Below, in pieces: positions 3,353 through 38,444 of a DNA stretch of 64,000 bases (the first letter of the stretch is position 1; the number at the start of each line of letters is the position of its first letter). This DNA comes from an uncultured Candidatus Saccharibacteria bacterium. Its GTDB lineage: Bacteria; Patescibacteriota; Minisyncoccia; 2-02-FULL-40-12; GWA2-44-9. A model generated the notes under the pieces. That model ran no database searches. It was not told where the DNA came from and saw only the letters and a list, made by a program, of their open reading frames with translations. Made by a program: the position numbers and the translations under genes. The DNA is taken from NCBI GenBank assembly GCA_964488565.1, contig CAZAUE010000002.1, positions 40,048-104,047 on the forward strand. The letters run 5' to 3'.

Positions 3353-4885
3353 TTATGCCAACTCGCTTAGCATCTTCTCATTAATGCGTAGATTTACAGC
3401 TTCGGCCACGTGTTGCTCTTTAATTATCTCAGAACCGTCTAAATCAGCGATAGTGCGGGCAAGCTTCTTGGTTTTATGATATGCCCTTAGTGATTGATTC
3501 TTTGCATTAATAGCTTGTTTGAGCAGATTCTCAGCCTCTTTGGTCAAAATACAGTATTTGTCTATGTTTTTATAATCAATCTCGGAATTATAAAACAAAC
3601 CAGTATTTCTGAACCTAGCCATCTGAATTTCTTTGGCTTTATTGATTTGAGCTTTAATTTCCGCCATTTTTACATTTCCTGAAGGGTAGACCTGTCCAAC
3701 TGTTTCGCGCGGAACATTGATTTGAATGTCTATTCTGTCTAATAACGGCCCAGACACCTTCTTTCTATATTTTAATACTTGAGTAGGGGAGCAGGAGCAA
3801 ATCCCCTTATCCTCGCCAAAATTACCACAGGGACAAGCATTCATAGCGGCCACCAAAGTGAAATTAGCTGGTAGGGTAATTGAGCTAGAGGCCCTAGAAA
3901 CAGAAATGGTGCCTTCTTCAAGGGGTTGCCTTAAGCTTTCTAGGACATTTCTTGGGAATTCCGGAAGTTCATCTAGAAACAAAACACCCCTGTGAGCTAA
4001 GCTTATTTCTCCTGGTTTTGGCCAAGTACCACCACCAACCATTGCTGGAGAAGACGTTGTATGATGCGGGCTTCTAAATGGGCGTTTAAACGAAAGAGGG
4101 GAGTTCTTAAATAGTCCGACTGAACTATAAATCTTGGCAACCTCAATCGCCTCCTCAAAAGACATTTTTGGCAACAACTCAGATAAGGCCTTAGCTAGTA
4201 ATGTTTTTCCTGAACCTGGAGGACCAGACATCAAGATGTTGTGAGCTCCAGCAGCTGCAATAATTAGGGCCCTTTTGGCCGTTTCTTGGCCCTTTATGGA
4301 CAACAATAGACCGTCGTCACCATCTTCAGGAGATTCATTTGTCTTTGCCCGCTCACTAAACAATGGTCGCGTGTTGTTTAAATGACCAACTACTTCTTTA
4401 ATATTCTTTGCCCCAACAACATTAATTCCTTGAACTATTTGCGCCTCAACAAGATTAGAATGGGGGACTATCAACTCTTTAAAACCCTTATTTTTTGCCA
4501 ATATTGCCGTAGCCAACACACCGTTGGTATGCTTTAAAGAGCCGTCTAAAGAAAGCTCGCCAATAAATAATTTTTTAGAGGAATCAAACTGTATTTGTTT
4601 GGTTTCCATCAAATAACCCACGGCAATCGGAAGGTCGTAGGATGGACCTTCTTTTTTAATATCAGCTGGGGCTAGGTTTATAATAATCTTTCTGTGCTTT
4701 GAGTTTGGCGCTGCCAAAGCGCTGTTCTTAATGGCTGAAGCAATCCTGTCTTTGGATTCTTGAACTGCTTTATCGGGAAGTCCGACAATATTAAAAACGT
4801 GAATACCTGGAGTTGAATCAACCTCAACCTCTATGAGTTGCGCGTCTATTCCGCTTATTGCGGAGGAAAAAAGTCTGATGGACAA
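3353..4885 (-). CDS. comM: ComM/YifB family Mg-chelatase-like AAA+ ATPase
   Basis: N-terminal Lon-like domain, Walker A GPPGSGKT, Walker B LFLDELPEF, and a C-terminal segment typical of YifB/ComM. 510 aa. Confidence 0.85.
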   Translation of the reverse strand: MSIRLFSSAISGIDAQLIEVEVDSTPGIHVFNIVGLPDKAVQESKDRIASAIKNSALAAPNSKHRKIIINLAPADIKKEGPSYDLPIAVGYLMETKQIQFDSSKKLFIGELSLDGSLKHTNGVLATAILAKNKGFKELIVPHSNLVEAQIVQGINVVGAKNIKEVVGHLNNTRPLFSERAKTNESPEDGDDGLLLSIKGQETAKRALIIAAAGAHNILMSGPPGSGKTLLAKALSELLPKMSFEEAIEVAKIYSSVGLFKNSPLSFKRPFRSPHHTTSSPAMVGGGTWPKPGEISLAHRGVLFLDELPEFPRNVLESLRQPLEEGTISVSRASSSITLPANFTLVAAMNACPCGNFGEDKGICSCSPTQVLKYRKKVSGPLLDRIDIQINVPRETVGQVYPSGNVKMAEIKAQINKAKEIQMARFRNTGLFYNSEIDYKNIDKYCILTKEAENLLKQAINAKNQSLRAYHKTKKLARTIADLDGSEIIKEQHVAEAVNLRINEKMLSELA

Positions 4886-5306: not shown

Positions 5307-5651
5307 GGGGTTGAAGAAATTTTAAGAATCAAAAAAGGCGCAGAACGCCCCTAATAAGTATGTAGTGTGGGCTCTGCGCCTTTGGGTCTCTTGCGAGACA
5401 TGAATTGCCGGCAATCCACGAATGTGTCTGACCACCAGCTAAAGATCTATACTAATTATACAAAGTCATTGGTGACACTGCAATAGCCAAACTGTGGATA
5501 AGGTGACACCATCAAACCATGGTGACATATTCATGGTGACACCATCAAATATTGGCTAATAGTGTCATTATTCCAAATAATCAGCCCCGCCAAGCGGGGC
5601 TGATTATTTACTAAATTTTATGGTGACAACAGGTTATGCACAAACCATCAC

Positions 5652-7079
5652 CTAAAATCCTTTGAGCTTATCTATTGTTCCAAAGATGGCTTCTCTCGAG
5701 TTTGTTACAACAAAATATGTTTTACCATTAGATGCCACAACAATTGAATAGTCTATCGTTCTGTCGGCAAATGGGAAATTCCAGAATCTAATGTTTGTGT
5801 TCCTGTATGAGTTGTTTGTAAAACCAGTTTGGTCTTTATTGCTTTTACCTAAAGAAAACAGGACCTTAAGATCGTTACTTAAACTATTTTCCCAACTGGT
5901 AATTACTTCGGAAGCACTGGCGGAATCTTTTAGTTCTGCGACAGCCACAATTCTATTAGAGGCAGTGGGTTCAATCAACAAATTACCCTTGGAGTCAAAA
6001 GATTCTTTTTGACCATAAACGAACATGGCGGAATCGTTTCCAATATTGCTTACTAATCCCACTGGAACGTTTAAGGCAAGTTTGGACAATAAATCAACAA
6101 AACCATAGGAAGTAGATGCGTTTTGAGCGTCGATAGTATTCAATATTTTAAATGATCCTGGAACCACAACCACCTTGCCAGTATCAGATACAAAAGACGC
6201 TAGTGCTCCAGTCTGTTTGATACTGACACTCTCTCTTACTACTCCGGAAAACATAGAGCTCAATGTTGGAGTAGGGGTTGGAACTGGTGTTTCTGTTGGA
6301 GTTGGCGTAGGAGTTTCAATTACAATCTCCGGGGCTGGTGCTCTTAAGATAAAGAACCAGTATGCAAATCCGGCCACCAATGCTATAGCGCCGATTCCCA
6401 AAAATAACACATTACGATTACCGCCCTTGGACCCAGCCTCAGGAACATAAATTTGTGACTTTTCCTCTGAAGTTGCTGGTGGTTTTGGGGCATCTTTCAT
6501 TTGAGCTAGTGGGCCCGTTTTCTGGCTTTCGCCCAAATTTACACTTGGAACTTTGAATTGCTGACCTGGTACTGCTGGCTTAGGAACGACGGGTTGAGGA
6601 GCAGGAGCTGCTTGTTCAACCTTTCTGGGAATATTAATTCCGGCTGGTTTTTGGCCTTGTTTTATATTAGAAATATCCTCACTCATTGTTCTGATTGAAG
6701 ATTGATATTCTTTTACGCCCGAGGTTGGTGGGGGAGTAACAGAAGATGGAGCTGGGGCTGGTTTTGATTGAGCAAATGACTGAGGGGGAACATTAAATTG
6801 TGGTCGTGGTGCTTCTGGTTTAGGTGTTGGAGTTGGAACAACTGGAGGTCTCACCGTGGTTGGTGGGACAAATGGTTTTGGTGCTGGCGAAGGAGGAGTT
6901 GCGGGTAAACCAGCCATTGGGGGAGATACTGGCGGTTTAGGTGTTGAGGGAATAGGTCTTGGTGCCTGAGTTGAAGGCGCAAGGGGCGGTGTCGGTGCTA
7001 CAGGATTTGTAGAACTTTTACTTAATTCCCTAACCAAGTCATTTATGTCCATAGTTTGGGGTTTCTGGTCATCTGCCAT
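5652..7079 (-). CDS. proline-rich membrane protein, hypothetical
   Basis: 475 aa. An N-terminal low-complexity P/T/A-rich region of about 200 aa, one TM helix (VLFLGIGAIALVAGFAYWFFIL), and a C-terminal globular domain. No recognisable family. Confidence 0.5.
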   Translation of the reverse strand: MADDQKPQTMDINDLVRELSKSSTNPVAPTPPLAPSTQAPRPIPSTPKPPVSPPMAGLPATPPSPAPKPFVPPTTVRPPVVPTPTPKPEAPRPQFNVPPQSFAQSKPAPAPSSVTPPPTSGVKEYQSSIRTMSEDISNIKQGQKPAGINIPRKVEQAAPAPQPVVPKPAVPGQQFKVPSVNLGESQKTGPLAQMKDAPKPPATSEEKSQIYVPEAGSKGGNRNVLFLGIGAIALVAGFAYWFFILRAPAPEIVIETPTPTPTETPVPTPTPTLSSMFSGVVRESVSIKQTGALASFVSDTGKVVVVPGSFKILNTIDAQNASTSYGFVDLLSKLALNVPVGLVSNIGNDSAMFVYGQKESFDSKGNLLIEPTASNRIVAVAELKDSASASEVITSWENSLSNDLKVLFSLGKSNKDQTGFTNNSYRNTNIRFWNFPFADRTIDYSIVVASNGKTYFVVTNSREAIFGTIDKLKGF

Positions 7080-8060: not shown

Positions 8061-10172
8061 CTATCTGTGCCCCTTCATCGTCAAACTTATCTTTCCTGTG
8101 TCATCTACGGCTTTGACCCAGACGTGGACTTCCTGACCCACCTTCAAAACATCAGTTACTTTGCTTACTCTTTCGTTGCTGATTTCAGATACATGAACCA
8201 TTCCATCTTTGCCAGGCATTATTTCCACAAAGGCCCCGAAGTCTCTGATGCTTACAACTGTGCCATCAAATTCATCTCCAGTTTTTACTTCGTAAGTAAC
8301 CTCGGCGATAAGAGCTAAGGCCTTTTTCATTCCTTCTGGAGTCATAGATGTGACGAATACGGAACCATCATCTTCAATATCTATTTCAGCTCCGGTTTTC
8401 TCAATGATTTCATTAATTACTTTTCCGCCTGGGCCAATAAGGGCTCCTATCTTGGCGGGATTTATTTTCACGGTTTGTATGCGAGGTGCATGAGCTGATA
8501 ATTCAGCTCTCGGAGCAGAAATTGCTTTATTTATAACATCCAAAATTTCCAAGCGAGCCTTAAGGGCTTGCGCTAATGTTTCTTCAACTATTTTGGGAGT
8601 AATACCATCAACTTTTACATCCATCTGCATACCAGTAACACCATCTTTGGTTCCAGCAACTTTCAAGTCCATGTCACCATGATGATCTTCTGGTCCCTGA
8701 ATGTCGGTAAGGATTTTATACTTCTCATTTTTTTCATCAAACATCAATCCCATAGCAATACCGGCAGCAGGGGATTTGATAGGAACTCCACCATCCATTA
8801 ACGCTAGAGTGGAACCGCAAACCGAGGCCATGGATGAAGAACCGTTAGACGATAGAATTTCTGACACCAAACGAATGGTGTAAGGAAATGCGTCTTTGTC
8901 GGGAATTATTGGCTCAAGAGAACGTTCTGCCAAATATCCATGTCCAACCTCTCTGCGTCCAAGGGCACCGACACGTTTTACCTCACCAGTTGAATATGGA
9001 GGAAAGCTGTAATGATGCATAAAGCGCTTCTTTGTAAGATTTATTTCCATGGTTTCAAGCCATTGTTCCATGCCTGGAGCAGCAAGTGTCAAAATAGACA
9101 AAGCTTGTGTTGTTCCCCGATTAAACAATCCTGAACCGTGAACACGAGGAAGAATTGAGGTGTCAGCTGATAGAGCACGAAGTTGATCAATCTTTCTTCC
9201 GTCTGGTCGTTTTCCTTCCTCAAGGACATTCTTGTGAACCATTCGATCTATTTCTTCTTCAAAAATTACGCTTACTTCGCTTAATTTTTTAGCAAGATTA
9301 AGGTCTGCTTCATATGTAGCCTTAAAATGGTCCATGAGTTCAGTCTTAATCTGACCAATTCCTTCATACAATTCGTCCTTGCCTTTGCCAGGTAAATAAA
9401 GAGCAACCCGAAGCTTGTCTTCGGTAAGTTTTCGGACCTCTTCAACTAATGCGACATCATGTACTGCAATAGTAAGCTCTTTCTTTGGTTTTCCGACTTC
9501 GCTCGCAATTTTTTTCTGAAAATCAGTCAATTGTTTGAGGGACTCAAAACCAGCATTGATTGCATCAGACATATCTTTTTCAGGAACGATCTTTGCACCG
9601 GCTTCAATCATGTTAATTCTTGTTTCTGTTCCAGCAACAACAATGTCAAAATCACTCAAAGCTCGTTCGGCATAAGTAGGGTTAAAGATCAGTTTTCCGT
9701 CTACGCGGCCAACACGAACACCAGCAATCGGGCCATCAAAAGGTATGTCGGAAATCATCAACGCAAGAGATGCGCCAAAAAGCGCCACGATATCTGAATC
9801 GTTAACGTAATCAAACGACAAAACTGTTGCAACAACCTGAATTTCGTTTCTGATTTTATTATTAAATCTGGGTCGGAGAGGTCGATCAATTAATCGGCCT
9901 GCAAGTATGGCTTCTTCTGTTGGTCTGCCATCGCGTTTTACCCAATTTGAGCCCTTAATTTTTCCGGCGGCATAATATTTTTCTTCGTACTCAACCTGAA
10001 GAGGGAGGTAGTCAACGGCTTTTTCAGCGTTCGACATGGTGGCATTAACCATAACGGTAGTTTCACCATATTGAACAACACAAACACCATTAGCCTGTCC
10101 ACCGAGACGACCTAATTCGACCTTGAGGGTTTTCCCCGCAAAGTCCATACTATATGTTTTTACTTCTGCCAT
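8061..10172 (-). CDS. pnp: polynucleotide phosphorylase (PNPase)
   Basis: 703 aa with two RNase PH domains, KH and a C-terminal S1 domain (GTVVSIRDFGAFVEI). Classic PNPase order. Confidence 0.95.
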   Translation of the reverse strand: MAEVKTYSMDFAGKTLKVELGRLGGQANGVCVVQYGETTVMVNATMSNAEKAVDYLPLQVEYEEKYYAAGKIKGSNWVKRDGRPTEEAILAGRLIDRPLRPRFNNKIRNEIQVVATVLSFDYVNDSDIVALFGASLALMISDIPFDGPIAGVRVGRVDGKLIFNPTYAERALSDFDIVVAGTETRINMIEAGAKIVPEKDMSDAINAGFESLKQLTDFQKKIASEVGKPKKELTIAVHDVALVEEVRKLTEDKLRVALYLPGKGKDELYEGIGQIKTELMDHFKATYEADLNLAKKLSEVSVIFEEEIDRMVHKNVLEEGKRPDGRKIDQLRALSADTSILPRVHGSGLFNRGTTQALSILTLAAPGMEQWLETMEINLTKKRFMHHYSFPPYSTGEVKRVGALGRREVGHGYLAERSLEPIIPDKDAFPYTIRLVSEILSSNGSSSMASVCGSTLALMDGGVPIKSPAAGIAMGLMFDEKNEKYKILTDIQGPEDHHGDMDLKVAGTKDGVTGMQMDVKVDGITPKIVEETLAQALKARLEILDVINKAISAPRAELSAHAPRIQTVKINPAKIGALIGPGGKVINEIIEKTGAEIDIEDDGSVFVTSMTPEGMKKALALIAEVTYEVKTGDEFDGTVVSIRDFGAFVEIMPGKDGMVHVSEISNERVSKVTDVLKVGQEVHVWVKAVDDTGKISLTMKGHR

Positions 10173-13702: not shown

Positions 13703-13880
13703 TCACAGATAATTCTTCACTACTGGGGAGGGACTCGCCCACAAGTTGAATTGTCTTCCGACAATTCTCTTGCGGGCCCAGCTCGTGGTTTCGCTCGCCA
13801 ATTGCTCGCGAAACATCACTGCGCTTTTCGAGTCACTACGCGAGCCAAGCAGTTGGCTCGCTCCCTCGGGCTACTGAGTA
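13703..13880. repeat. GC-rich insert downstream of tRNA-Leu carrying a partial duplicate of the tRNA 3' end
   Basis: ctggggagggactcg at 13723-13737 duplicates the tRNA-Leu T-arm and acceptor sequence (13929-13943). It shares the cccagctcgtggttt...aacatcactgcgcttt module with 32470-32530. GC content is far above the flanks. Confidence 0.6.
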
Positions 13881-16615: not shown

Positions 16616-16761
16616 AGTGATAAATAAGGACAGCCGGTGGCTGTCCTTATTTAGTATCAATGCGTGATAGGGAGGATGAGAAAGGCGGAGCGCTGGCGCG
16701 AGCCGGGGTCGCGGAATTTTTCAGTAGAAAAATATCTGTGACCGAATCCTCCCGTCTCCGC
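16616..16761. repeat. about 145-bp GC-rich insert after tRNA-Ser ending in a 19-bp duplicate of the tRNA 3' end
   Basis: cgaatcctcccgtctccgc at 16597-16615 is repeated at 16743-16761. The insert begins with a terminator hairpin (aaataaggacagccggtggctgtccttattt) and contains the cgcgagccggggtcgcgg module. Confidence 0.65.
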
Positions 16762-31808: not shown

Positions 31809-32399
31809 ATGCTAATAAACAACGACAACCTTATAGAGAGTACCGTCTCGAGCTTGTATCAAGTGTCCGATTTTGAAATTGGAAAACTTACGGTTGCTCA
31901 AGCTTTAGAATATCTTCCTGGATTCGGAGCCGATGCAAACTGGAATATCGTAAAAATAATCATGATAGTGATTAGTGTATTGATTGGGATATTTTGGGTA
32001 AGGATATTATTAAAAACAAGAGAATTGTTTTCCACAAAAACAGACCTCTCCAAAAACCTCTTGCCACCATCAGGTACCACATCGGGATTAGATGCTCGTT
32101 GGGTTGAAATTGAGAAACACATTAACTCAACACGTGAAGCAGAATGGAAATTTGCAGTTATAGAAGCGGACAAATTAACTGACGAATTATTAAAATCATC
32201 TGGATTCCAAGGAGACACAATGGGGGATAGACTGATGAATATTCAACCTGGCCAACTAGTGACCATACAAGGCCTCTGGGAGGCTCACAAGATAAGGAAT
32301 CGCCTGGTTCATGATACTAATTACTTCCTACGCTACACTGAAGCAAAAAGAGCTGTCGGTCTATATGAAAAAACTTTAAAAGAATTACAGGCATTATAA
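31809..32399 (+). CDS. membrane-anchored hypothetical protein with a HEPN-like Rx4H motif
   Basis: Central TM helix (IIMIVISVLIGIFWVRILL). C-terminal AHKIRNRLVHD resembles the HEPN R-x4-6-H motif. Terminator aaactccctttagggagtttt follows. Confidence 0.35.
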   Translation: MLINNDNLIESTVSSLYQVSDFEIGKLTVAQALEYLPGFGADANWNIVKIIMIVISVLIGIFWVRILLKTRELFSTKTDLSKNLLPPSGTTSGLDARWVEIEKHINSTREAEWKFAVIEADKLTDELLKSSGFQGDTMGDRLMNIQPGQLVTIQGLWEAHKIRNRLVHDTNYFLRYTEAKRAVGLYEKTLKELQAL

Positions 32400-32569
32400 A
32401 ACTCCCTTTAGGGAGTTTTATAATCTGGTGGTCACAAGTATTTTTCCTGACGGAAAAATCTCGCGACCCCAGCTCGTGGTTTTTGCCTTTCGCTATCGCT
32501 CAAACAAAAACATCACTGCGCTTTCCAAAAGCTAAAAATCTAAAGCAGTTTAGATTTTCTGACGCTTTG

Positions 32570-32640
32570 TGGACCTACCGAGAGTCGAACTCGGCCCTCT
32601 TCCATGCCATGGAAGCGTAATACCGATTTACTATAGGCCC
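32570..32640 (-). tRNA. tRNA-Ala (anticodon GGC)
   Basis: Acceptor gggccua with a G3:U70 pair (Ala identity), anticodon loop auGGCau, T arm ccgag-ttcgact-ctcgg. Confidence 0.7.
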
Positions 32641-32804
32641 GAACGAGGATGTGGGAATGTTTTACATTCACATCATCCGAGTGAAGGGTATATACCTCTT
32701 GGTATAGGCCCTAATCCCATCAAAACTATACAAACATCATTCTCTTAATTTAATTGAAAAAATACCACAAAAATGCTACTATATCAAGATAAATTAACTT
32801 ATTC

Positions 32805-32876
32805 GCCCTCGTAGTTCAATGGATAGAACAAATCCGTCCTAAGGATAAAATGGGGGTCCGATTCCCTCCGAGGGCA
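32805..32876 (+). tRNA. tRNA-Arg (anticodon CCT)
   Basis: Acceptor gccctcg/cgagggc, D arm with GG, anticodon loop guCCUaa. The T loop reads tccgatt (C at position 55), which is unusual, so confidence is moderate. Confidence 0.55.
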
Positions 32877-33031
32877 CAAATTATGTTACGTTTTACGTAA
32901 AGCAAGTGAACTGCTTCACTTGCGTCAGAATTTGTGAGTTCGGAACTTATGACAGTCAATAGACTGTCATGTGAGAACGGGGTCGCGACCGAGCCAAGCG
33001 ACGGCGAGGCGAGAGTTGTGACCAAAAAGAT

Positions 33032-34465
33032 ATGAAATTACCAGAAGAAGTCCAAAATATAATCAAAAAGCTTCAAGATTCAGGATTTGAGGGGTATGCC
33101 GTGGGTGGCTGTGTCCGAGATTTATTATTGGGCAAAGAACCCAAAGATTGGGACATTACAACCAACGCCAAGCCGGAGGAAATACAAAACATATTTCCTG
33201 AACATGTTTACGAAAACACATTTGGAACCGTAGCGGTTAAAACCGGTTCAGAAAAATCTGAGCTTACTCTTGTTGAAGTTACACCGTATCGCATTGAAGG
33301 CAAATACACGGACAAACGCCATCCTGATGATGTTAAATTTGCCGACAAACTTGAAGACGATTTATCGCGTCGTGATTTTACGGTTAATGCTCTGGCGATG
33401 GATATTGATGGCAAAATCATAGATCTTTTTGATGGCAAAAAAGACTTGAAATCAAAAACAATAAGAACTGTAGGCGAGCCGGAAGAAAGATTTAATGAGG
33501 ATGCTTTGAGGTTGCTACGGGCCGTAAGATTCGCAACAATTCTTGATTTTAAAATAGAAAAGAAAACATTAGAAGCGGTAACCAAAAATTCAGATTGGTT
33601 GATAGCTATATCCAAAGAAAGAATCAGAGATGAGTTTGTTAAAATAATCAATTCTGACAACGCATATGATGGAATTGTACTTCTTAATGAAACAGGGTTA
33701 TTAAAACATATTGTTCCGGAACTATTAGAAGGAATCGGAGTTGGTCAAAACCTTCATCATATTTATACAGTCTGGGAACACAATCTTTTAGCTCTTAAGT
33801 ATGCCGTCAGTAAAAACTACTCACTGGAGGTAAGGCTTGGTTCATTGTTTCATGACATTGGTAAACCTCAAACAAAAAGAGGGGACGGGAAACATTCAAC
33901 CTTTTATGGACATGATGTGGTTGGGGCTAGAATAACCGCTGAGGTAATGGATAGATTAAAGTTCCCCAAAGAAACAGCCGAGAAAGTTATCAAACTTGTC
34001 CGTTACCATCTTTTCTATTACAACGTAGATGAGGTGACCGAATCCTCTGTAAGACGATTATTGGTGAACGTTGGTCCTGAAAACATGAGCGACCTAATAA
34101 AAATACGAGAAGCAGATAGAATTGGTTCAGGGACACCAAAAGCAGTTCCTTATAAATTAAGGCACCTGCAATATATCATTGATAAGGTTTCCCATGACCC
34201 GATTTCTGTAAAAATGTTAAAGGTCGGCGGAGAAGATGTTATAAAGGAACTTAAAACCCAACCAGGACCTAAGGTTGGATTGATTTTAAACTATCTTTTA
34301 GCTGAAGTAATAGATGATCCGTCAAAAAATACAAAAGAATATCTAGAACAAAGAATCCATGAATTAGATAAAGAGTCCCCAGAAGAATTAAAAAAATCAT
34401 TAGAAAAGATAGAGAAGGCGATTGAGGAGGAGGAGAAGGAAAGAATGAAGAAGTATTACGTTTAA
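33032..34465 (+). CDS. cca: CCA-adding tRNA nucleotidyltransferase with C-terminal HD domain
   Basis: Pol-beta NTase motif GGCVRDLLLG..DWDI, RRDFTVNALA, and an HD domain (HHIYTVWEH...FHDIGK). All tRNAs in the window lack an encoded CCA. Confidence 0.85.
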   Translation: MKLPEEVQNIIKKLQDSGFEGYAVGGCVRDLLLGKEPKDWDITTNAKPEEIQNIFPEHVYENTFGTVAVKTGSEKSELTLVEVTPYRIEGKYTDKRHPDDVKFADKLEDDLSRRDFTVNALAMDIDGKIIDLFDGKKDLKSKTIRTVGEPEERFNEDALRLLRAVRFATILDFKIEKKTLEAVTKNSDWLIAISKERIRDEFVKIINSDNAYDGIVLLNETGLLKHIVPELLEGIGVGQNLHHIYTVWEHNLLALKYAVSKNYSLEVRLGSLFHDIGKPQTKRGDGKHSTFYGHDVVGARITAEVMDRLKFPKETAEKVIKLVRYHLFYYNVDEVTESSVRRLLVNVGPENMSDLIKIREADRIGSGTPKAVPYKLRHLQYIIDKVSHDPISVKMLKVGGEDVIKELKTQPGPKVGLILNYLLAEVIDDPSKNTKEYLEQRIHELDKESPEELKKSLEKIEKAIEEEEKERMKKYYV

Positions 34466-34468
34466 TTT

Positions 34469-34540
34469 CGGGCCGTAGTGTAACGGTAACACGCACGATT
34501 CGGGTTCGTGAGACTCCGGGTTCAAATCCCGGCGGCCCGA
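34469..34540 (+). tRNA. tRNA-Pro (anticodon CGG)
   Basis: Acceptor cgggccg/cggcccg, anticodon stem cacga/tcgtg, loop uuCGGgu, T arm ccggg-ttcaaat-cccgg. Confidence 0.75.
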
Positions 34541-34710
34541 CTGGAGCAACGCGAAAGGAGGGGTGCAGCAAACAAACTACTTTGTTTGCGTCGAGAAGTG
34601 AAAAGCGGAGCGATATTTCTCGAACAGTTGGTGAGAGAAATCGCGAGCTGGGCCTGCGACCGAGCCGACGGAAGTCGGCGAGAGTTGTAGGCAAATCCCG
34701 GCGGCCCGAC
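34541..34710. repeat. about 170-bp GC-rich insert after tRNA-Pro ending in a perfect 19-bp duplicate of the tRNA 3' end
   Basis: caaatcccggcggcccgac at 34523-34541 is repeated at 34692-34710. The insert carries the gcgaccgagcc...cggcgagagttgt module shared with 32985-33020. Confidence 0.7.
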
Positions 34711-34720
34711 AAGCATCTGG

Positions 34721-35215
34721 TCAGTTAGGCTTTTTTCTTATTATTATTTTTATAGCTCTTTTCATGGTTTCAAAAATAACTGGAAGTTCAAGATAGTCTA
34801 TAGATATGGCTAGCCATGCAACGATATGGTTCCAGTGACCCACCAAACTTGCGTAACCCAAAACCTGGATAACCATTTCGTCGGTTATCCATAAAATATG
34901 CAACCACTGAACATTCAAGAAAATAAGGAAAAACAAATCTTTCCTGTTTGGTTTAATTTTGTATGATCTTAGATACACCAAAGAAGTTGCCACTATGGCC
35001 GGAATTTCAGTATAATCAACAACCGCTATGGTAGTATTGAAAAGGTGATTAATTAAAAACGGGGCAACGTCAAAAATTCTAGGAATTACCACGTTTGTAG
35101 TCAACCACAGAAGATGAATCAGTTGAATTGAAAATAATGCCCCAGCAAAGACAACATTGAAATCATCATGGTTGTCATACCACCTTAAAAATTTGCGCAC
35201 GATATTAGAAAACAT
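34721..35215 (-). CDS. hypothetical polytopic membrane protein
   Basis: 164 aa, 4-5 predicted TM helices. No recognisable family. Confidence 0.4.
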   Translation of the reverse strand: MFSNIVRKFLRWYDNHDDFNVVFAGALFSIQLIHLLWLTTNVVIPRIFDVAPFLINHLFNTTIAVVDYTEIPAIVATSLVYLRSYKIKPNRKDLFFLIFLNVQWLHILWITDEMVIQVLGYASLVGHWNHIVAWLAISIDYLELPVIFETMKRAIKIIIRKKPN

Positions 35216-35254
35216 TGTTTAAACATAATACCAGAAAAATATTAATTTTCAAAC

Positions 35255-35326
35255 GGGCCCGCCCTCACACCTACTTAGCACTGAGGGCCTCCGGCCCTAA
35301 AGTGTTATTGTGCTAAGTAGGTGTGA
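35255..35326. repeat. 65-bp palindromic insert flanked by a 7-bp direct repeat (gggcccg) at the 5' end of tRNA-Ala(CGC)
   Basis: Perfect 20-bp arms ccctcacacctacttagcac / gtgctaagtaggtgtgaggg (35262-35281 / 35310-35329) with a GC hairpin in the loop. gggcccg at 35255-35261 duplicates the tRNA acceptor 5' strand at 35327-35333. Confidence 0.65.
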
Positions 35327-35397
35327 GGGCCCGTAGTTAAGTGGCATAACGCGACATTCGCATTGTCGAGGCGGGAGTTCGATTCTCCCCGGGTCCA
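35327..35397 (+). tRNA. tRNA-Ala (anticodon CGC)
   Basis: Acceptor gggcccg/cgggucc with G3:U70, anticodon stem cgaca/tgtcg, loop uuCGCau, T arm gggag-ttcgatt-ctccc. Confidence 0.7.
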
Positions 35398-35399
35398 CA

Positions 35400-35424
35400 A
35401 TAAAAACCCCACCTAGGTGGGGTC
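35400..35424 (-). terminator. bidirectional hairpin terminator (CDF gene on minus strand, tRNA-Ala on plus strand)
   Basis: aaaaaccccacctaggtggggtc. The minus-strand reading ends in a U tract. Confidence 0.65.
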
Positions 35425-36354
35425 AGAAGAACATCTTGTCTCAATTGTTAGGTGCACATTTTTTAATTCAGGAAATTCTTCCTGAAGATGAGTCTTAATT
35501 AGGTCGGGGACAGAGTCGTGCAGGGTGTGACTACTAATCAAGACGCTACCACTTAAAACCGTTAGGTCGGAGCTGATTTTGTTTATATGTAAATCTAAAA
35601 CATCACTTACTCCATAAACTTTATTAATTGATGCTGTGACTTTATTAAAATCGATATCTATTGGCACAGCTTCCATTATCATGTTGAAAATTATTTTCGG
35701 AGTTTTTCTAAAACTCCAGATCAACATACCAGCAATCATAATCGCGGCTAAAATATCTACCCAGAATAAACGTTGGTCAATCAAAACAACAACGGAACCG
35801 ATAATAACAGCAACAGAACCTAACGCATCGGTAACAGCACAGGCAATAGCGCTTTTTATTCCTTCTTCTCCGTGACTATGAACACTTAGGGTCTTGAAGA
35901 CCGCTAGATTTACCACAAGTCCGAGTGTGCCGACCAAAAATACCGGCCACGCAAGAATCTCGGTGTGTCCAAACATTAATCGCAAATACGCTTCTCTGAC
36001 AATCCAAAAAATCGCGGTCCCCACCAAAAGAGTGTTGAGAATAATAATTAATAACTCCAAACGACGGAAACCAAAACTTAGATAGCCAACAACCGAATCT
36101 CTTGGGGGAACACTCCTTAATTTATAAACCCAGTAGGTCAGAACCAGAACAAAACCATCAGTGAGCATGTGAATACTATCACCCAACATTGCCAAACTGT
36201 TTGTTAGGTAGCCGGTTATAAATTCAACCGCAAAGTAAGCAAGTGTTATGAAAATACCTTTTTTTAAATCACCCAATTTAAGATGCTCGTGATGTACGTG
36301 TTCATGTCCGTGATGTATATGTACATCTTTTTGTTCCTGAAATGTGCAACTCAT
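35413..36354 (-). CDS. cation diffusion facilitator family divalent-metal efflux transporter
   Basis: Six TM helices, HxxxD metal-binding motifs in TM2/TM5, His-rich N-terminus (HIHHGHEHVHHEH), and a C-terminal cytoplasmic domain. Confidence 0.8.
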   Translation of the reverse strand: MSCTFQEQKDVHIHHGHEHVHHEHLKLGDLKKGIFITLAYFAVEFITGYLTNSLAMLGDSIHMLTDGFVLVLTYWVYKLRSVPPRDSVVGYLSFGFRRLELLIIILNTLLVGTAIFWIVREAYLRLMFGHTEILAWPVFLVGTLGLVVNLAVFKTLSVHSHGEEGIKSAIACAVTDALGSVAVIIGSVVVLIDQRLFWVDILAAIMIAGMLIWSFRKTPKIIFNMIMEAVPIDIDFNKVTASINKVYGVSDVLDLHINKISSDLTVLSGSVLISSHTLHDSVPDLIKTHLQEEFPELKNVHLTIETRCSSDPT

Positions 36355-36437
36355 ACTTGTCCTTTTAAAGGTACCTAATTACTATCTTTATACGCTAAAT
36401 CTAAAACTTATTCAAAATTACGAATTTTCATAAATGT

Positions 36438-38444
36438 GTGGTAATGTCAGATATAAACATGGAAGAAATATTCAAGAATTTAAATGACAAACAGATAGAA
36501 GCCGTGAAAGCCGTTGAGGGTCCGGTTTTAGTCATTTCAGGTCCTGGTTCAGGTAAAACTCGATGCCTAACTCACAGGGTGGCTTATTTAATTTCTCAGG
36601 GAATAAGGCCTGATAATATTTTGGCCATAACTTTTACAAACAAAGCATCAAACGAAATGAAGGAGAGGATTAATGTACTACTCAACCAAGAAAATAAACC
36701 TTCTTTCGGTCGAATGGGTCAACCGGTAATCGGCACATTTCATTCAGTCTGCTTAAGAATATTAAGGAGAGAAATTACCATCTTAGGATATAAATCAAAC
36801 TTCTCAATTTTTGATACTAATGACCAGCTAAGCCTAATAAAAAAAGTAATGACTGGTTTGGAAATAGATTCCAAAAGATATAACCCTCGTTTGGTATTAA
36901 ATAAAATTTCCAAACTTAAAACAGATTTAATTTTCCCAGAGAACTACAACCCAACAGAATTTTTCACAAAAATTGTTTCACGAGTCTATAATGGCTACCA
37001 AGATGAGTTAAAAAAGATGAACGGTTTAGACTTTGATGATTTAATTGTTTTAACTGTTAAAATTTTCAAACAAAATCCGGAAATATTGGAAAAATATCAA
37101 AGTTTTTGGAAATACATCCTCGTGGACGAATATCAAGATACCAGTCATGACCAGTATACATTAGTAAAACTATTATCGGCCAAGGACAAGAACATCTTCG
37201 CCATAGGTGATGACGCTCAATCAATTTATGCTTTTCGTGATGCTGACATAAGAAATATTTTAAATTTTCAAAAAGATTATCCTGATGCTCAGGTTATTTT
37301 TCTTGAACAAAACTATCGCTCAACCAAGAACATACTAGCCGCAGCTCAAAATCTTATCTCAAATAACCAAGCTCGTGTTCCTAAAGAATTATGGACCGAA
37401 AACACGAAAGGGGAGAAGATCTATGTTAAAGAAACTCTCAACGAACGAGATGAGGCTGAATTTGTGGTTGATAAAATAGATGAACTAATGGAATCGGGTT
37501 ACAAGATTCAGGATTTTACAATTCTATATCGCACTCATGCCCAATCAAGAGCTATTGAGGAGGGCTTAATCACCAGAGGATTTCCGTATCAAATCGTGGG
37601 CGGTATCAGATTCTACGAAAGGAAAGAGATTAAAGACATTCTGTCTTACCTTAAATTTATGGTTAATCCAACTGATTTAATGAGTCTTGAGAGGATATAC
37701 AATGTCCCAACAAGAGGGATCGGCGAAACAACTTTCAACAAAATCACTGCAATTGATGCGCCTGACCTAATTCAATCAATCGGGATACTTGCCAAAGAGA
37801 GGGGCGACACCAAGCAAGCCAGATCTTTAAATGAATTTGAAAAACTCCTAACCGATCTATCTGAAAGAAAAAATGATAAAAATTTAACTTCCGTCATAAA
37901 GTACATAATCAAAAGAATTGACTATGAAGATTATCTGAAGAGTTTAGTTGCAAAAAAAGAACTCTACGACAACGTTGAGGACAAAATGGAAAACTTAAAA
38001 GAACTTTTAACTGTTTCAAAAAAATACGACCTACTAAAAGGCGAAGAGGGGATAGAAAAGTTTCTCGAAGAAATAGCCCTGCTCCAGGAAACAGACAAAA
38101 TGAAGGCTTCTGCTGACAGAATCACACTCATGACAGTTCACTCATCAAAAGGCTTGGAATTTCCTGTTGTTTTTATTGCCGGAATGGAAGAGGGTCTTTT
38201 TCCACACAGCAGAGCGACATTGGTGCCATTGGAACTGGAAGAAGAACGTCGTCTTTGTTATGTGGCTATTACAAGGGCAAAAGATCGCTTGGTCATGACT
38301 CATGCCAAATACCGAACCATTTATGGTACCACTCAAACCAACCTGCCCTCGCGATTTATTTATGAAATACCCAAAGACGTTCTTCATGTTCAACCATTAT
38401 TTGAAAGCATTAGTCGTTATGATGAGGATATTATAGAATACTAG
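36438..38444 (+). CDS. pcrA: ATP-dependent DNA helicase UvrD/PcrA family
   Basis: Motif I GPGSGKT, motif II DEYQD, and the later motifs through TVHSSKGLEF...VAITRAK. 668 aa. Confidence 0.9.
   Translation: MVMSDINMEEIFKNLNDKQIEAVKAVEGPVLVISGPGSGKTRCLTHRVAYLISQGIRPDNILAITFTNKASNEMKERINVLLNQENKPSFGRMGQPVIGTFHSVCLRILRREITILGYKSNFSIFDTNDQLSLIKKVMTGLEIDSKRYNPRLVLNKISKLKTDLIFPENYNPTEFFTKIVSRVYNGYQDELKKMNGLDFDDLIVLTVKIFKQNPEILEKYQSFWKYILVDEYQDTSHDQYTLVKLLSAKDKNIFAIGDDAQSIYAFRDADIRNILNFQKDYPDAQVIFLEQNYRSTKNILAAAQNLISNNQARVPKELWTENTKGEKIYVKETLNERDEAEFVVDKIDELMESGYKIQDFTILYRTHAQSRAIEEGLITRGFPYQIVGGIRFYERKEIKDILSYLKFMVNPTDLMSLERIYNVPTRGIGETTFNKITAIDAPDLIQSIGILAKERGDTKQARSLNEFEKLLTDLSERKNDKNLTSVIKYIIKRIDYEDYLKSLVAKKELYDNVEDKMENLKELLTVSKKYDLLKGEEGIEKFLEEIALLQETDKMKASADRITLMTVHSSKGLEFPVVFIAGMEEGLFPHSRATLVPLELEEERRLCYVAITRAKDRLVMTHAKYRTIYGTTQTNLPSRFIYEIPKDVLHVQPLFESISRYDEDIIEY

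What the first reader, a model, noticed from the sequence alone, without database searches (positions are those of the whole stretch)
32570..32711. tRNA-Ala(GGC) preceded by a 62-bp hairpin insert flanked by a 9-bp duplicate of the tRNA 5' end
tataggccc, the 5' acceptor strand of the minus-strand tRNA, occurs at 32632-32640 and again at 32703-32711. The two copies bracket a 62-bp segment that folds as an imperfect hairpin (ggatgtgggaatgttttacattcacatcatcc). This mirrors the arrangement at tRNA-Ala(CGC), with a small palindromic insert at the tRNA 5' end and short target-site-duplication-like repeats.
Basis: seen in the sequence. Interest (0 to 1): 0.5.

Follow-up and report, generated by a model that had tools for sequence, protein, structure and literature searches.

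The report
Hairpin insert duplicating tRNA-Ala 5' end
A 62-bp hairpin-forming insertion sits just in front of an alanine tRNA gene of an uncultured groundwater bacterium, flanked by two copies of the tRNA's first nine bases so that the gene stays intact. It looks like the footprint of a small mobile element, and it is one case of an unusually frequent invasion of tRNA gene ends in this bacterial group.

Summary
GGGCCTATA, nt 1-9 of the minus-strand tRNA-Ala(GGC), occurs only twice in 64 kb, 71 nt apart. The two copies bracket 62 nt that fold into two hairpins. The window comes from a Candidatus Yanofskybacteria (Patescibacteria/CPR) genome.

At least ten relatives have a clean empty site, with a conserved sigma-70-like promoter and a short leader running straight into the tRNA. 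Two other lineages (L167/L168 and L088) carry a homologous insert with the same 9-mer repeat. Each is nested among insert-free sister genomes.

The twin insert at tRNA-Ala(CGC) is an ORF-less miniature of a mobile element. Full-length copies carry an 86-87-aa GIY-YIG nuclease ORF between 19-20-bp inverted repeats (CCCCTCACTTG...). They sit at exactly this site of tRNA-Ala(CGC) in L170 and L184, and at a non-tRNA site in L176.

For the GGC insert the link to that family rests on architecture only. Sequence similarity is weak and no other copy was found.

Best reading: a tolerated miniature element or insertion scar. It lengthens the 5' leader to about 112 nt, and its repeat regenerates the tRNA 5' end. 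A cis-acting RNA role is not excluded, because the insert is far more conserved than neutral sites.

New variant of a known kind. Interest is moderate.

The parts
32569..32640 (-). tRNA-Ala(GGC) gene, intact, G3:U70, no encoded CCA
   Evidence: ARAGORN. Rfam tRNA, 55.1 bits.
32632..32640 (-). Downstream copy of the direct repeat GGGCCTATA, which is tRNA nt 1-9
32641..32702 (-). 62-bp insert, absent from the orthologous site of at least ten relatives
   Evidence: Alignment A1..
32647..32678 (-). Hairpin 2 (GGAUGAUGUGAAUGU-AAA-ACAUUCCCACAUCC). The stem base is kept in L167 and, through a compensatory G-C to A-U change, in L088. The loop varies.
32686..32711 (-). Hairpin 1. The upstream repeat copy GGGCCUAUACC pairs with an inverted copy of itself, GGUAUA(UA)CCC. 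Eight of its nine pairs are invariant in the three lineages.
32703..32711 (-). Upstream copy of the direct repeat GGGCCTATA. It occupies the position of tRNA +1 in empty-site relatives.
32712..32752 (-). Remaining 5' leader. It is not conserved: absent in L167 and different in L088.
32759..32787 (-). Conserved sigma-70-like promoter (TTGATA, 17 nt, TG-n-TATTTT) upstream of both repeat copies. The predicted leader is about 112 nt in the window, against about 10-25 nt in most empty-site relatives.
   Evidence: Consensus match only. The hexamers are invariant in 8 genomes.
32419..32532 (-). Structured 'type A' element in the 3' flank of the same tRNA, followed by a degenerate tRNA 3'-end remnant (GACCACCA)
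   Evidence: Covariance model R1, 55.9 bits, E = 1.8e-14. This copy was among the 12 sequences the model was built from..
35255..35330 (+). Twin at tRNA-Ala(CGC). It consists of the GGGCCCG repeat, a 21-bp perfect inverted repeat starting CCCTCAC, and a 28-nt loop. It is an ORF-less miniature of the GIY-YIG element with terminal inverted repeats.
35327..35398 (+). tRNA-Ala(CGC) gene

Best explanation
The 62-bp segment is a miniature, non-autonomous mobile element or its insertion scar. It entered the first nine bases of the tRNA-Ala(GGC) gene in one Yanofskybacteria lineage.

The insertion left two copies of GGGCCTATA. The downstream copy regenerates a complete tRNA gene, so the insertion is tolerated. 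The upstream copy is the old gene start.

Transcription from the unchanged promoter now yields a structured 5' leader of about 112 nt, which RNase P must remove at the downstream copy (inferred). The upstream copy is locked in hairpin 1 by an adjacent inverted copy of itself. This would stop the decoy 5' strand from competing for the tRNA's 3' acceptor strand (inferred).

The source is most likely the kind of element seen at the twin site: small hairpin-bounded elements whose autonomous members carry an 86-87-aa GIY-YIG nuclease ORF between 19-20-bp inverted repeats. These insert next to a GGG run with a short target duplication. tRNA-Ala begins with GGG and the element ends in GGG, so the duplication starts exactly at +1.

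Shown: the insertion, the repeat, the hairpins, the empty sites, the patchy distribution, and the GIY-YIG family at tRNA-Ala(CGC).

Inferred: that the GGC insert derives from such an element, the transposition chemistry, and the RNA processing.
For: - The repeat is non-random, and its spacing (71 vs 72 nt) and architecture match the second tRNA-Ala.
- Clean empty sites occur in L166 (CCA-adding enzyme 92% identical), L085, L090, L094, L091, L095, L096 and L171-L173, all with an invariant promoter.
- In L167/L168 the upstream 9-mer directly follows the same short leader (caattaaaaatag) that precedes tRNA +1 in empty sites.
- The distribution is patchy. The window, L167 and L088 each sit among insert-free sisters in the CCA-enzyme tree.
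- Full-length elements occur at the same place of tRNA-Ala(CGC):
  - L170: GGGCCCG + CCCCTCACTTGGAAAGGAT..GIY-YIG ORF..ATCCTTTCCAAGTGAGGGG + CCCGTCG.
  - L184: GGGCCTG + CCCCTCACTTGAAAGCGAT..ORF..AAGTGAGGGG + CCTGTCG. Here the repeat follows the local tRNA sequence.
  - L176: the same inverted repeats at a non-tRNA site with a GGGGTTGA/TTGA repeat.
- The window's CGC insert has the same site, the same 7-mer repeat, and an inverted repeat starting CCCTCAC.
- GIY-YIG ORFs lie beside or inside tRNA genes with partial tRNA duplications in many loci, including L050, L144 and L060. In L058 two copies carry identical 25-bp inverted repeats.
- No known RNA family or intron matches the insert.
Against: - No second copy of the GGC insert exists in the 64-kb window or in 175 loci, and no GIY-YIG ORF lies in the window.
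- The GGC insert lacks clear terminal inverted repeats. Its similarity to the element ends (CCCTTCACTCGGA vs CCCCTCACTTGGA) has p about 0.02 for the window copy and is not significant for the L167 and L088 homologues.
- The motif lies 14 nt inside the insert, not at its edge.
- The repeat is 9 bp here, against 4 or 7-8 bp in the GIY-YIG family.
- The insert is 85% (L167) and 68% (L088) identical to the window copy, while four-fold degenerate sites of the adjacent gene are 44% and 39% identical. The upstream 10 nt are 100% conserved in all three. This means either selection on the sequence or recent transfer, not a neutral relic.
Confidence: 0.5

Rival explanations
1. The unit is a functional cis-acting RNA module in the pre-tRNA leader. 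It contains an anti-acceptor segment (GGUAUAUACCC, complementary to tRNA nt 1-11), a decoy copy of the tRNA 5' strand, and a structured core (hairpin 2). The anti-acceptor segment can pair with the decoy, leaving the tRNA free to fold. Or it can pair with the real 5' end, leaving the tRNA misfolded and unprocessed. The module would thereby tune maturation or stability of tRNA-Ala(GGC).
For: - The insert is much more conserved than neutral sites, and the upstream 10 nt are invariant in three lineages.
- Substitutions fall in loops, and three stem pairs change on both sides with pairing kept.
- RNAalifold also finds an alternative helix, CUCGGAUGA / UCGUUCGGG, that includes tRNA G1-G3. Its four one-sided changes all keep pairing.
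- The 3' 'type A' elements show the same layout of tRNA segment, inverted copy, conserved core and direct copy, with 18 of 20 pairs covarying.
- In the CGC precursor the minimum-energy fold pairs the upstream copy with the 3' acceptor strand.
Against: - Most relatives, including the closest (92% identity), lack the unit and use the same promoter and the same or another tRNA allele. It is therefore dispensable.
- There are only three sequences. Hairpin 1 never varies, so it gives no covariation evidence, and 12 of 500 shuffles reach the observed pairing.
- The CGC twin has an unrelated sequence and a clear mobile-element relative.
- No ligand- or protein-binding motif is known, and no Rfam family matches.
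Confidence: 0.22
2. The unit is a by-product of recombination or break repair at a tRNA gene, not a transposable element. One route is replacement of the tRNA allele by incoming DNA, anchored on the conserved tRNA with an illegitimate join at position 9. The other is repair of a nuclease-made break with snap-back, templated synthesis. Either would leave a direct copy, an inverted copy and filler.
For: - tRNA-Ala(GGC) alleles at this locus differ sharply between close relatives, with two sequence types under the same promoter.
- 5' fragments upstream of intact tRNAs have variable lengths of 7, 9, 11, 16, 21, 22 and 24 nt in other loci.
- In L057 the 11-nt fragment is likewise followed at once by an inverted copy of its end (GGTGAT-aaa-ATCAC).
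- The segment between the two inverted tRNA-Ala genes is inverted relative to L172.
- No other copy of the insert exists.
Against: - A one-off scar should decay neutrally, but it is conserved, shared by three lineages and shows structure-preserving changes.
- The same spacing at two tRNA-Ala genes and the element relative of the CGC twin point to a defined element.
Confidence: 0.18
3. The 71 nt (one repeat copy plus the insert) form an intervening sequence. It would be spliced out of a tRNA whose real 5' end is the upstream copy.
For: - The upstream copy could form the acceptor stem, as the minimum-energy fold of the CGC precursor does.
- Patescibacteria are rich in tRNA group I introns (PMC13011429).
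Against: - The downstream copy already gives a complete tRNA, so no splicing is needed.
- There is no group I or II core and no Rfam hit.
- 62 nt is too small for a self-splicing intron.
- Bacteria are not known to have the archaeal splicing endonuclease (own knowledge).
- Introns do not create flanking duplications.
Confidence: 0.03
4. The 9-mer recurs by chance next to an ordinary leader hairpin.
For: None beyond the short repeat length.
Against: The 9-mer has only two matches in the window, 71 nt apart, and the chance of this is about 4e-4. The same layout occurs at the second tRNA-Ala, and the repeat is kept in two other lineages.
Confidence: 0.01

Closest known systems
[quoted passage not shown]
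   Same: Small size (62-65 bp), hairpin-forming, flanked by short direct repeats, present or absent between close relatives. For the CGC twin there is an ORF-bearing relative with the same ends.
   Different: - The GGC insert has no clear terminal inverted repeats and is single-copy in all sequence held.
- The repeat starts exactly at tRNA +1.
- The putative autonomous partner encodes a GIY-YIG nuclease, which is not a known bacterial transposase class (own knowledge).
- The paper searches returned no title or abstract describing such an element. The hits were not read in full.
Integrative elements that target tRNA genes and restore them with a duplicated tRNA segment (att sites). tRNA gene fragments left by such integrations are described in PMC9897764 and PMC3293823.
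   Same: A partial copy of the tRNA lies beside an intact gene, and the duplication keeps the tRNA functional.
   Different: The classical cases duplicate the 3' part, span kilobases and encode an integrase (own knowledge). Here the 5' nine bases are duplicated, the insert is 62 bp, and there is no recombinase.
Free-standing GIY-YIG homing endonuclease genes, for example phage T4 SegB in the tRNA gene cluster (own knowledge)
   Same: Small GIY-YIG ORFs are physically tied to tRNA genes.
   Different: Homing endonuclease genes are not flanked by 19-25-bp inverted repeats and target duplications. Cleavage specificity of the CPR proteins is untested.
[quoted passage not shown]
   Same: Same phylum, and extra sequence inside tRNA genes.
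   Different: Those introns lie in the anticodon loop (including position 35/36), are self-splicing ribozymes and interrupt the gene. This insert lies at the 5' end, has no ribozyme core and leaves a complete gene.
Dada DNA transposons of eukaryotes, which insert specifically into tRNA and snRNA genes (PMC8869645)
   Same: Target specificity for small RNA genes as safe havens.
   Different: Eukaryotic, with a different transposase and multicopy targets. There is no restoration of the gene end by duplication.

Membership tests
MITE / non-autonomous DNA transposon | Flanking target-site duplication | tested here: met
   9-bp GGGCCTATA direct repeat. It is kept in L167/L168 and L088.
MITE / non-autonomous DNA transposon | Terminal inverted repeats matching those of an autonomous element | tested here: inconclusive
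   For the GGC insert, only a weak end pairing (AAGAGG/CCTCGTT) and an internal TIR-like motif at p about 0.02, not seen in the homologues. For the CGC twin the feature is met: a 21-bp inverted repeat starting CCCTCAC, like L170, L184 and L176.
MITE / non-autonomous DNA transposon | Multiple copies in a genome | tested here: not met
   No other copy in the 64-kb window or in 175 loci. The rest of the genome was not available.
MITE / non-autonomous DNA transposon | Empty sites in related genomes | tested here: met
   Alignment A1.. Patchy distribution on the tree.
GIY-YIG element with terminal inverted repeats, CCCCTCACTTG... (defined here from L170, L184, L176) | Insertion next to GGG with a repeat of GGG + 4 nt, and inverted repeats beginning CCC(C)TCAC | tested here: inconclusive
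   The CGC twin meets it. The GGC insert has the GGG-led repeat, but the motif sits 14 nt inside the insert and the right end does not match.
GIY-YIG element with terminal inverted repeats, CCCCTCACTTG... | GIY-YIG ORF between the repeats (autonomous form) | tested here: not met
   Hairpin 2 has a 3-nt loop. tblastn finds no GIY-YIG ORF in the window. The insert can at most be a non-autonomous derivative.
tRNA intron (group I, or archaeal bulge-helix-bulge type) | Interrupts the mature tRNA sequence, so that splicing is needed | tested here: not met
   The downstream copy gives a full 71-nt tRNA that scores 55 bits.
tRNA intron (group I, or archaeal bulge-helix-bulge type) | Ribozyme core or bulge-helix-bulge motif | tested here: not met
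   No Rfam match even at E up to 10. Inspection found no 3-4-3 bulge-helix-bulge.
Decayed tandem duplicate of the tRNA gene | Residual similarity to the tRNA along the whole unit | tested here: not met
   Beyond nt 1-9 there is only a 14-nt match at p about 0.04 in the window copy, and none in L167 or L088.
Intrinsic terminator or promoter element | G+C-rich stem followed by a T run, or conserved hexamers in relatives | tested here: not met
   No terminator was called in the insert. The conserved promoter lies upstream of both repeat copies.

The most novel reading that the evidence does not exclude
In Parcubacteria, tRNA genes are colonised by a previously undescribed class of small elements built as 'inverted copy of a tRNA end, structured core, direct copy of that tRNA end'.

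The class would include the 5' units at tRNA-Ala, the 3' 'type A' module found after five of the seven tRNAs in this window, tRNA genes nested inside the anticodon loop of another tRNA-Ala gene, and GIY-YIG-carrying autonomous forms.

The ends of these elements are copied from, or co-evolve with, the particular tRNA they sit on. That implies either a tRNA-templated insertion mechanism or an RNA-level decoy/anti-tRNA switch that controls tRNA maturation.
Probability: 0.2. Interest if true: 0.85.

Novelty: new variant of a known kind. Interest (0 to 1): 0.55.

Why it matters
tRNA genes are classic landing sites for large integrative elements. Here tiny elements of 60-190 bp sit at both ends of most tRNA genes of a genome-reduced CPR bacterium, each carrying a copy of the tRNA end that keeps the gene whole.

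If the GIY-YIG elements with terminal inverted repeats are truly mobile, they would be a nuclease-based transposon or homing system that targets the GGG start of tRNA-Ala.

If the inserts act at the RNA level, they would be a new way to control tRNA maturation.

Either way they create long structured leaders and trailers and partial tRNA copies. These confuse annotation, offer recombination substrates (an inversion between the two tRNA-Ala genes is seen here), and show how tRNA genes get split, nested or replaced.

Tried and rejected
1. **Known RNA families.** The Rfam gathering scan of the whole window found only the seven tRNAs. Permissive scans of 32400-35600 and 34440-34740 found nothing credible.
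2. **Archaeal-type intron or split tRNA.** The organism is bacterial (LigA, GatCA, CCA-adding enzyme, UvrD) and no bulge-helix-bulge motif is present.
3. **Group I intron.** The insert is too small and has no core. The Patescibacteria tRNA intron paper (PMC13011429) does not describe tRNA-Ala 5' inserts.
4. **Decayed tandem tRNA copy.** The unit is as long as the tRNA, but similarity beyond nt 1-9 is not significant.
5. **Other copies of either insert.** blastn-short against the window and all loci found none.
6. **Similarity between the two inserts in the window.** None.
7. **GIY-YIG ORF in the window.** None by tblastn.
8. **Terminator or promoter role of the hairpin.** Not supported.
9. **Literature.** Searches for GIY-YIG elements with inverted repeats in tRNA genes, or for tRNA-end MITEs in CPR, returned no title or abstract describing such an element. 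The hits were not read in full.
10. **Strain polymorphism.** A Logan contig of the same sample ends inside the tRNA (L082), but this is not informative.

Full report
**1. Where the window comes from**

The genes around the finding are bacterial: NAD-dependent DNA ligase, GatC/GatA, a CCA-adding enzyme with an HD domain, and UvrD. The best relatives of the CCA-adding enzyme are metagenome-assembled genomes labelled Candidatus Yanofskybacteria, Paceibacterota or Patescibacteria. A nearly identical contig (4 differences in 3200 nt) comes from a groundwater metagenome, SRR1658343. tRNA genes here do not encode CCA.

**2. The observation**

- tRNA-Ala(GGC) lies at 32569-32640 on the minus strand.
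- Its first nine bases, GGGCCTATA, recur 71 nt upstream (32703-32711).
- These are the only two matches in 64 kb on both strands, against 0.29 expected.
- The chance of a copy within 150 nt upstream is about 4e-4.

The 71-nt unit folds into two hairpins at -24.2 kcal/mol (z = -4.6).

- Hairpin 1 (32686-32711) pairs the upstream repeat copy with an inverted copy of itself: GGGCCUAUACC / GGUAUA-UA-CCC.

tRNA-Ala(CGC) at 35327-35398 has the mirror layout. GGGCCCG recurs 72 nt upstream, and a perfect 21-bp inverted repeat reaches into tRNA nt 1-4. That unit folds at -41.8 kcal/mol (z = -6.0). The other five tRNAs in the window have no 5' duplicate.

**3. It is an insertion**

Synteny is conserved in relatives: tRNA-Ala(GGC) on the minus strand, then tRNA-Arg(CCT), the CCA-adding enzyme, tRNA-Pro(CGG) and tRNA-Ala(CGC).

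An alignment of the region upstream of tRNA-Ala(GGC) shows an invariant promoter-like block: CTTGAnAT, 17 nt, TG-n-TATTTT, then TCAATT (A1; consensus scan). In six aligned relatives a leader of about 10-25 nt follows, and then the tRNA. L166, L171 and L172/L173 show the same. The window and L088 carry an extra block of about 70 nt, bounded by the 9-mer repeat.

L167/L168 (CCA-adding enzyme 89% identical) also carry it. There the upstream 9-mer directly follows caattaaaaatag, the very leader that precedes tRNA +1 in the empty sites of L090 and L094. This is the signature of an insertion that duplicated tRNA nt 1-9. The promoter lies upstream of both copies, so the predicted leader is about 112 nt in the window.

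**4. Distribution and conservation**

In a neighbour-joining tree of the CCA-adding enzyme, the three insert-bearing genomes each have insert-free sisters. The window groups with L165/L166, L167 with L090/L172, and L088 with L094/L002. This needs either several gains or transfers, or several precise losses. Deletion between the 9-bp repeats would restore an empty site.

| Comparison | Insert identity | Four-fold degenerate sites, adjacent gene |
|---|---|---|
| Window vs L167 | 85% | 44% |
| Window vs L088 | 68% | 39% |

Random expectation at the four-fold sites is 28%. The upstream 10 nt are identical in all three lineages.

Differences concentrate in the loops. Three stem pairs of hairpin 2 change on both sides and stay paired. 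Hairpin 1 never varies. Overall, 93.9% of cells are paired, a value reached by 12 of 500 shuffles.

RNAalifold also proposes an alternative helix, CUCGGAUGA / UCGUUCGGG, that includes tRNA G1-G3 and is kept through four one-sided changes.

So the unit is either under selection or has been exchanged more recently than the flanking genes diverged. With three sequences I cannot separate these.

**5. The twin at tRNA-Ala(CGC) and its autonomous relatives**

| Locus | Upstream repeat | Element | Downstream |
|---|---|---|---|
| L170/L169 | GGGCCCG | CCCCTCACTTGGAAAGGAT .. 86-aa GIY-YIG ORF .. ATCCTTTCCAAGTGAGGGG | CCCGTCGTATAG (tRNA-Ala(CGC), just after tRNA-Pro) |
| L184 | GGGCCTG | CCCCTCACTTGAAAGCGAT .. 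87-aa ORF .. ATCGCTTTCAAGTGAGGGG | CCTGTCG (tRNA-Ala(CGC) that begins GGGCCTG) |
| L176/L179 | GGGGTTGA | CCCCTCACTTGAAAATAAT .. ORF .. AAGTGAGGGG | TTGA (not a tRNA site) |
| Window | GGGCCCG | CCCTCACACCTACTTAGCAC + 28-nt loop + GTGCTAAGTAGGTGTGAGGG | CCCGTAG (tRNA-Ala(CGC)) |

Relatives of L170 have the uninterrupted gene at that place (L171, L172, L088). In L184 the repeat follows the local tRNA sequence, so it is a true target duplication.

The window's CGC insert is therefore an ORF-less miniature at the same site.

The sequences are compatible with a 4-bp duplication plus element ends CCC(C)...GGG(G), or with a 7-8-bp duplication. In either reading the element lands beside a GGG run and its own terminal GGG rebuilds the tRNA start. 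That would explain why the repeat begins exactly at +1 and why tRNAs starting with GGG are hit.

The ORF belongs to a large set of 'GIY-YIG nuclease family' proteins of Patescibacteria, with 626 hits at E up to 1e-15.

In the loci held, such ORFs often lie in or next to tRNA genes, with partial tRNA copies:
- L050 and L144: a 5' fragment of about 22 nt of tRNA-Lys, the ORF, then tRNA-Lys.
- L060: tRNA-Lys, the ORF, then a 17-nt 3' fragment.
- L058: two copies with identical 25-bp inverted repeats.

**6. How far this carries over to the GGC insert**

By architecture the parallel is close:
- a tRNA-Ala gene;
- a repeat that starts with GGG at +1;
- the same unit length;
- a collapsed hairpin;
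- an internal CCCTTCACTCGGA that resembles the element end CCCCTCACTTGGA.

By sequence it is weak:
- p is about 0.02 for the window copy and not significant for L167 or L088;
- the motif lies 14 nt inside the insert;
- the right end does not match;
- the two inserts in the window are unrelated in sequence;
- no other copy of the GGC insert exists in the window or the 175 loci;
- the window has no GIY-YIG ORF.

I therefore rate 'miniature element or insertion scar of this kind' at 0.5, not higher.

The 13-16 nt between the upstream 9-mer and the CCC motif form the inverted copy that makes hairpin 1. A similar snap-back copy follows the 11-nt tRNA-Leu fragment in L057. This fits templated filling during insertion or break repair (inference).

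**7. Consequences for the RNA (inferred)**

The precursor would carry the decoy 5' strand, the anti-acceptor segment and hairpin 2 ahead of the tRNA. In the predicted fold of the GGC precursor, hairpin 1 sequesters the decoy. In the CGC precursor the minimum-energy fold instead pairs the upstream copy with the 3' acceptor strand and buries tRNA G1-C4 in the 21-bp hairpin. Such a duplex is long enough to be an RNase III substrate before RNase P acts (own knowledge, untested).

A regulatory role as a decoy/anti-acceptor switch is the main rival (0.22). A recombination or repair scar without a transposable element is second (0.18). An intron (0.03) and chance (0.01) are rejected for the reasons given in the rival explanations.

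**8. The wider pattern, seen in passing**

About 8% of 583 non-redundant tRNAs in the window and loci have a fragment of themselves nearby. Three forms stand out.

*3' elements.* The commonest form is an intact tRNA, then 108-193 nt, then an exact copy of the last 17-21 nt running from the T-loop to the discriminator.
- Many of these inserts share a conserved structured core that I call type A.
- The core is preceded by an inverted copy of that tRNA's own T-arm.
- 18 of its 20 predicted pairs covary.
- A covariance model finds it after five of the seven tRNAs in the window (Pro, Leu, Ser, Ala-GGC, Arg-CCT). These five copies were among the 12 sequences used to build the model. The new information is that the only other match in the window is a marginal one (E = 0.69).
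- In the 80 genome loci it gives 11 hits. The ten I could place lie after tRNAs, and the context of the weakest (L072) was not checked.
- No Rfam family matches.

*Nested tRNA genes.* In L011, L012, L056, L068 (and in decayed form L025, L045, L063) a complete tRNA-Ala(CGC) sits inside the anticodon loop of another tRNA-Ala gene. It is bracketed by a covarying inverted repeat (TTCACCCCG-X ... X'-CGGGGCAAG). L093 has the same for tRNA-Ala(TGC).

*tRNA-Met palindromes.* tRNA-Met genes beginning GGGCCCA have 17-23-bp perfect palindromes that include tRNA nt 1-7, with different stem sequences in four lineages.

Together these suggest that tRNA ends are a general habitat for small structured elements in this group.

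**9. Verdict**

The finding is real. The thing is best filed as a new variant of a known kind: small mobile insertions in tRNA genes that preserve the gene by duplicating its end. The literature searches run here returned no title or abstract describing it; the hits were not read in full. Interest is moderate (0.55). The wider pattern deserves a dedicated study.

Noticed in passing
window 34594-34703 (+), 13726-13835 (-), 16674-16754 (+), 32419-32532 (-), 32928-33034 (+): A conserved structured 'type A' element of about 100 nt lies just downstream of five of the seven tRNAs (Pro-CGG, Leu-TAA, Ser-GCT, Ala-GGC, Arg-CCT). All five copies were in the model's training set. The rest of the window gives only one marginal match (E = 0.69). 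The element begins with an inverted copy of that tRNA's T-arm. For Pro, Ser and Leu it ends in an exact 13-19-nt copy of the tRNA 3' end. 18 of 20 predicted pairs covary. No Rfam family matches.
   Followed up: partly
L011 ~5450-5700, L012 ~5790-6020, L056 ~9680-9880, L068 ~1760-1960, L093 ~90-430 (also L025, L045, L063): A complete tRNA-Ala gene is nested inside the anticodon loop of a second, otherwise intact tRNA-Ala gene. It is bracketed by an inverted repeat whose sequence differs between loci while staying complementary (TTCACCCCG-X ... X'-CGGGGCAAG). The outer gene has no usable anticodon.
   Followed up: partly
L170 3024-3840 (and L169): One tRNA-Ala(CGC) gene carries two insertions. 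The first is a GIY-YIG element with terminal inverted repeats, after nt 7. The second lies in the anticodon region and holds a second GIY-YIG-like ORF plus a complete tRNA-Ala(CGC) identical to the window's copy apart from an encoded CCA.
   Followed up: partly
L018 ~3905-3950, L079 ~4065-4110, L095 ~313-360, L096 ~291-335: tRNA-Met(CAT) genes that start GGGCCCA are preceded by 17-23-bp perfect palindromes that include tRNA nt 1-7. The stem sequences are unrelated in the four lineages.
   Followed up: no
window 31809-32640 and 35327-38444, compared with L172/L173: The block between the two inverted tRNA-Ala genes is inverted relative to L172. The 196-aa ORF lies beside tRNA-Ala(GGC) here but beside tRNA-Ala(CGC) there, and UvrD is the other way round. 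The sequence downstream of the window's tRNA-Ala(GGC) matches the sequence downstream of tRNA-Ala(CGC) in L088.
   Followed up: partly
tRNA-Ala(GGC) locus in L166, L002, L007-L014 versus the window, L167, L091: Two very different tRNA-Ala(GGC) sequences (GGGCCTATAGTAAATCGG... and GGGCCGNTAGCTCAGCTGG...) occupy the same promoter context in close relatives. This implies replacement of the tRNA gene at a fixed locus.
   Followed up: no
L026 ~2670, L050 ~3360, L144 ~1890, L037 ~5790: A short palindrome, CTGCCTGCCGGCAGGCAGG, recurs in different genomes. In L026, L050 and L144 it is inserted into dead 5' fragments of tRNA-Pro or tRNA-Lys.
   Followed up: no
window 32754-32787: Back-to-back promoter-like sites with TG-extended -10 boxes lie between the divergent tRNA-Ala(GGC) and tRNA-Arg(CCT) genes. 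The tRNA-Ala(GGC) promoter hexamers are invariant in the eight aligned genomes.
   Followed up: partly
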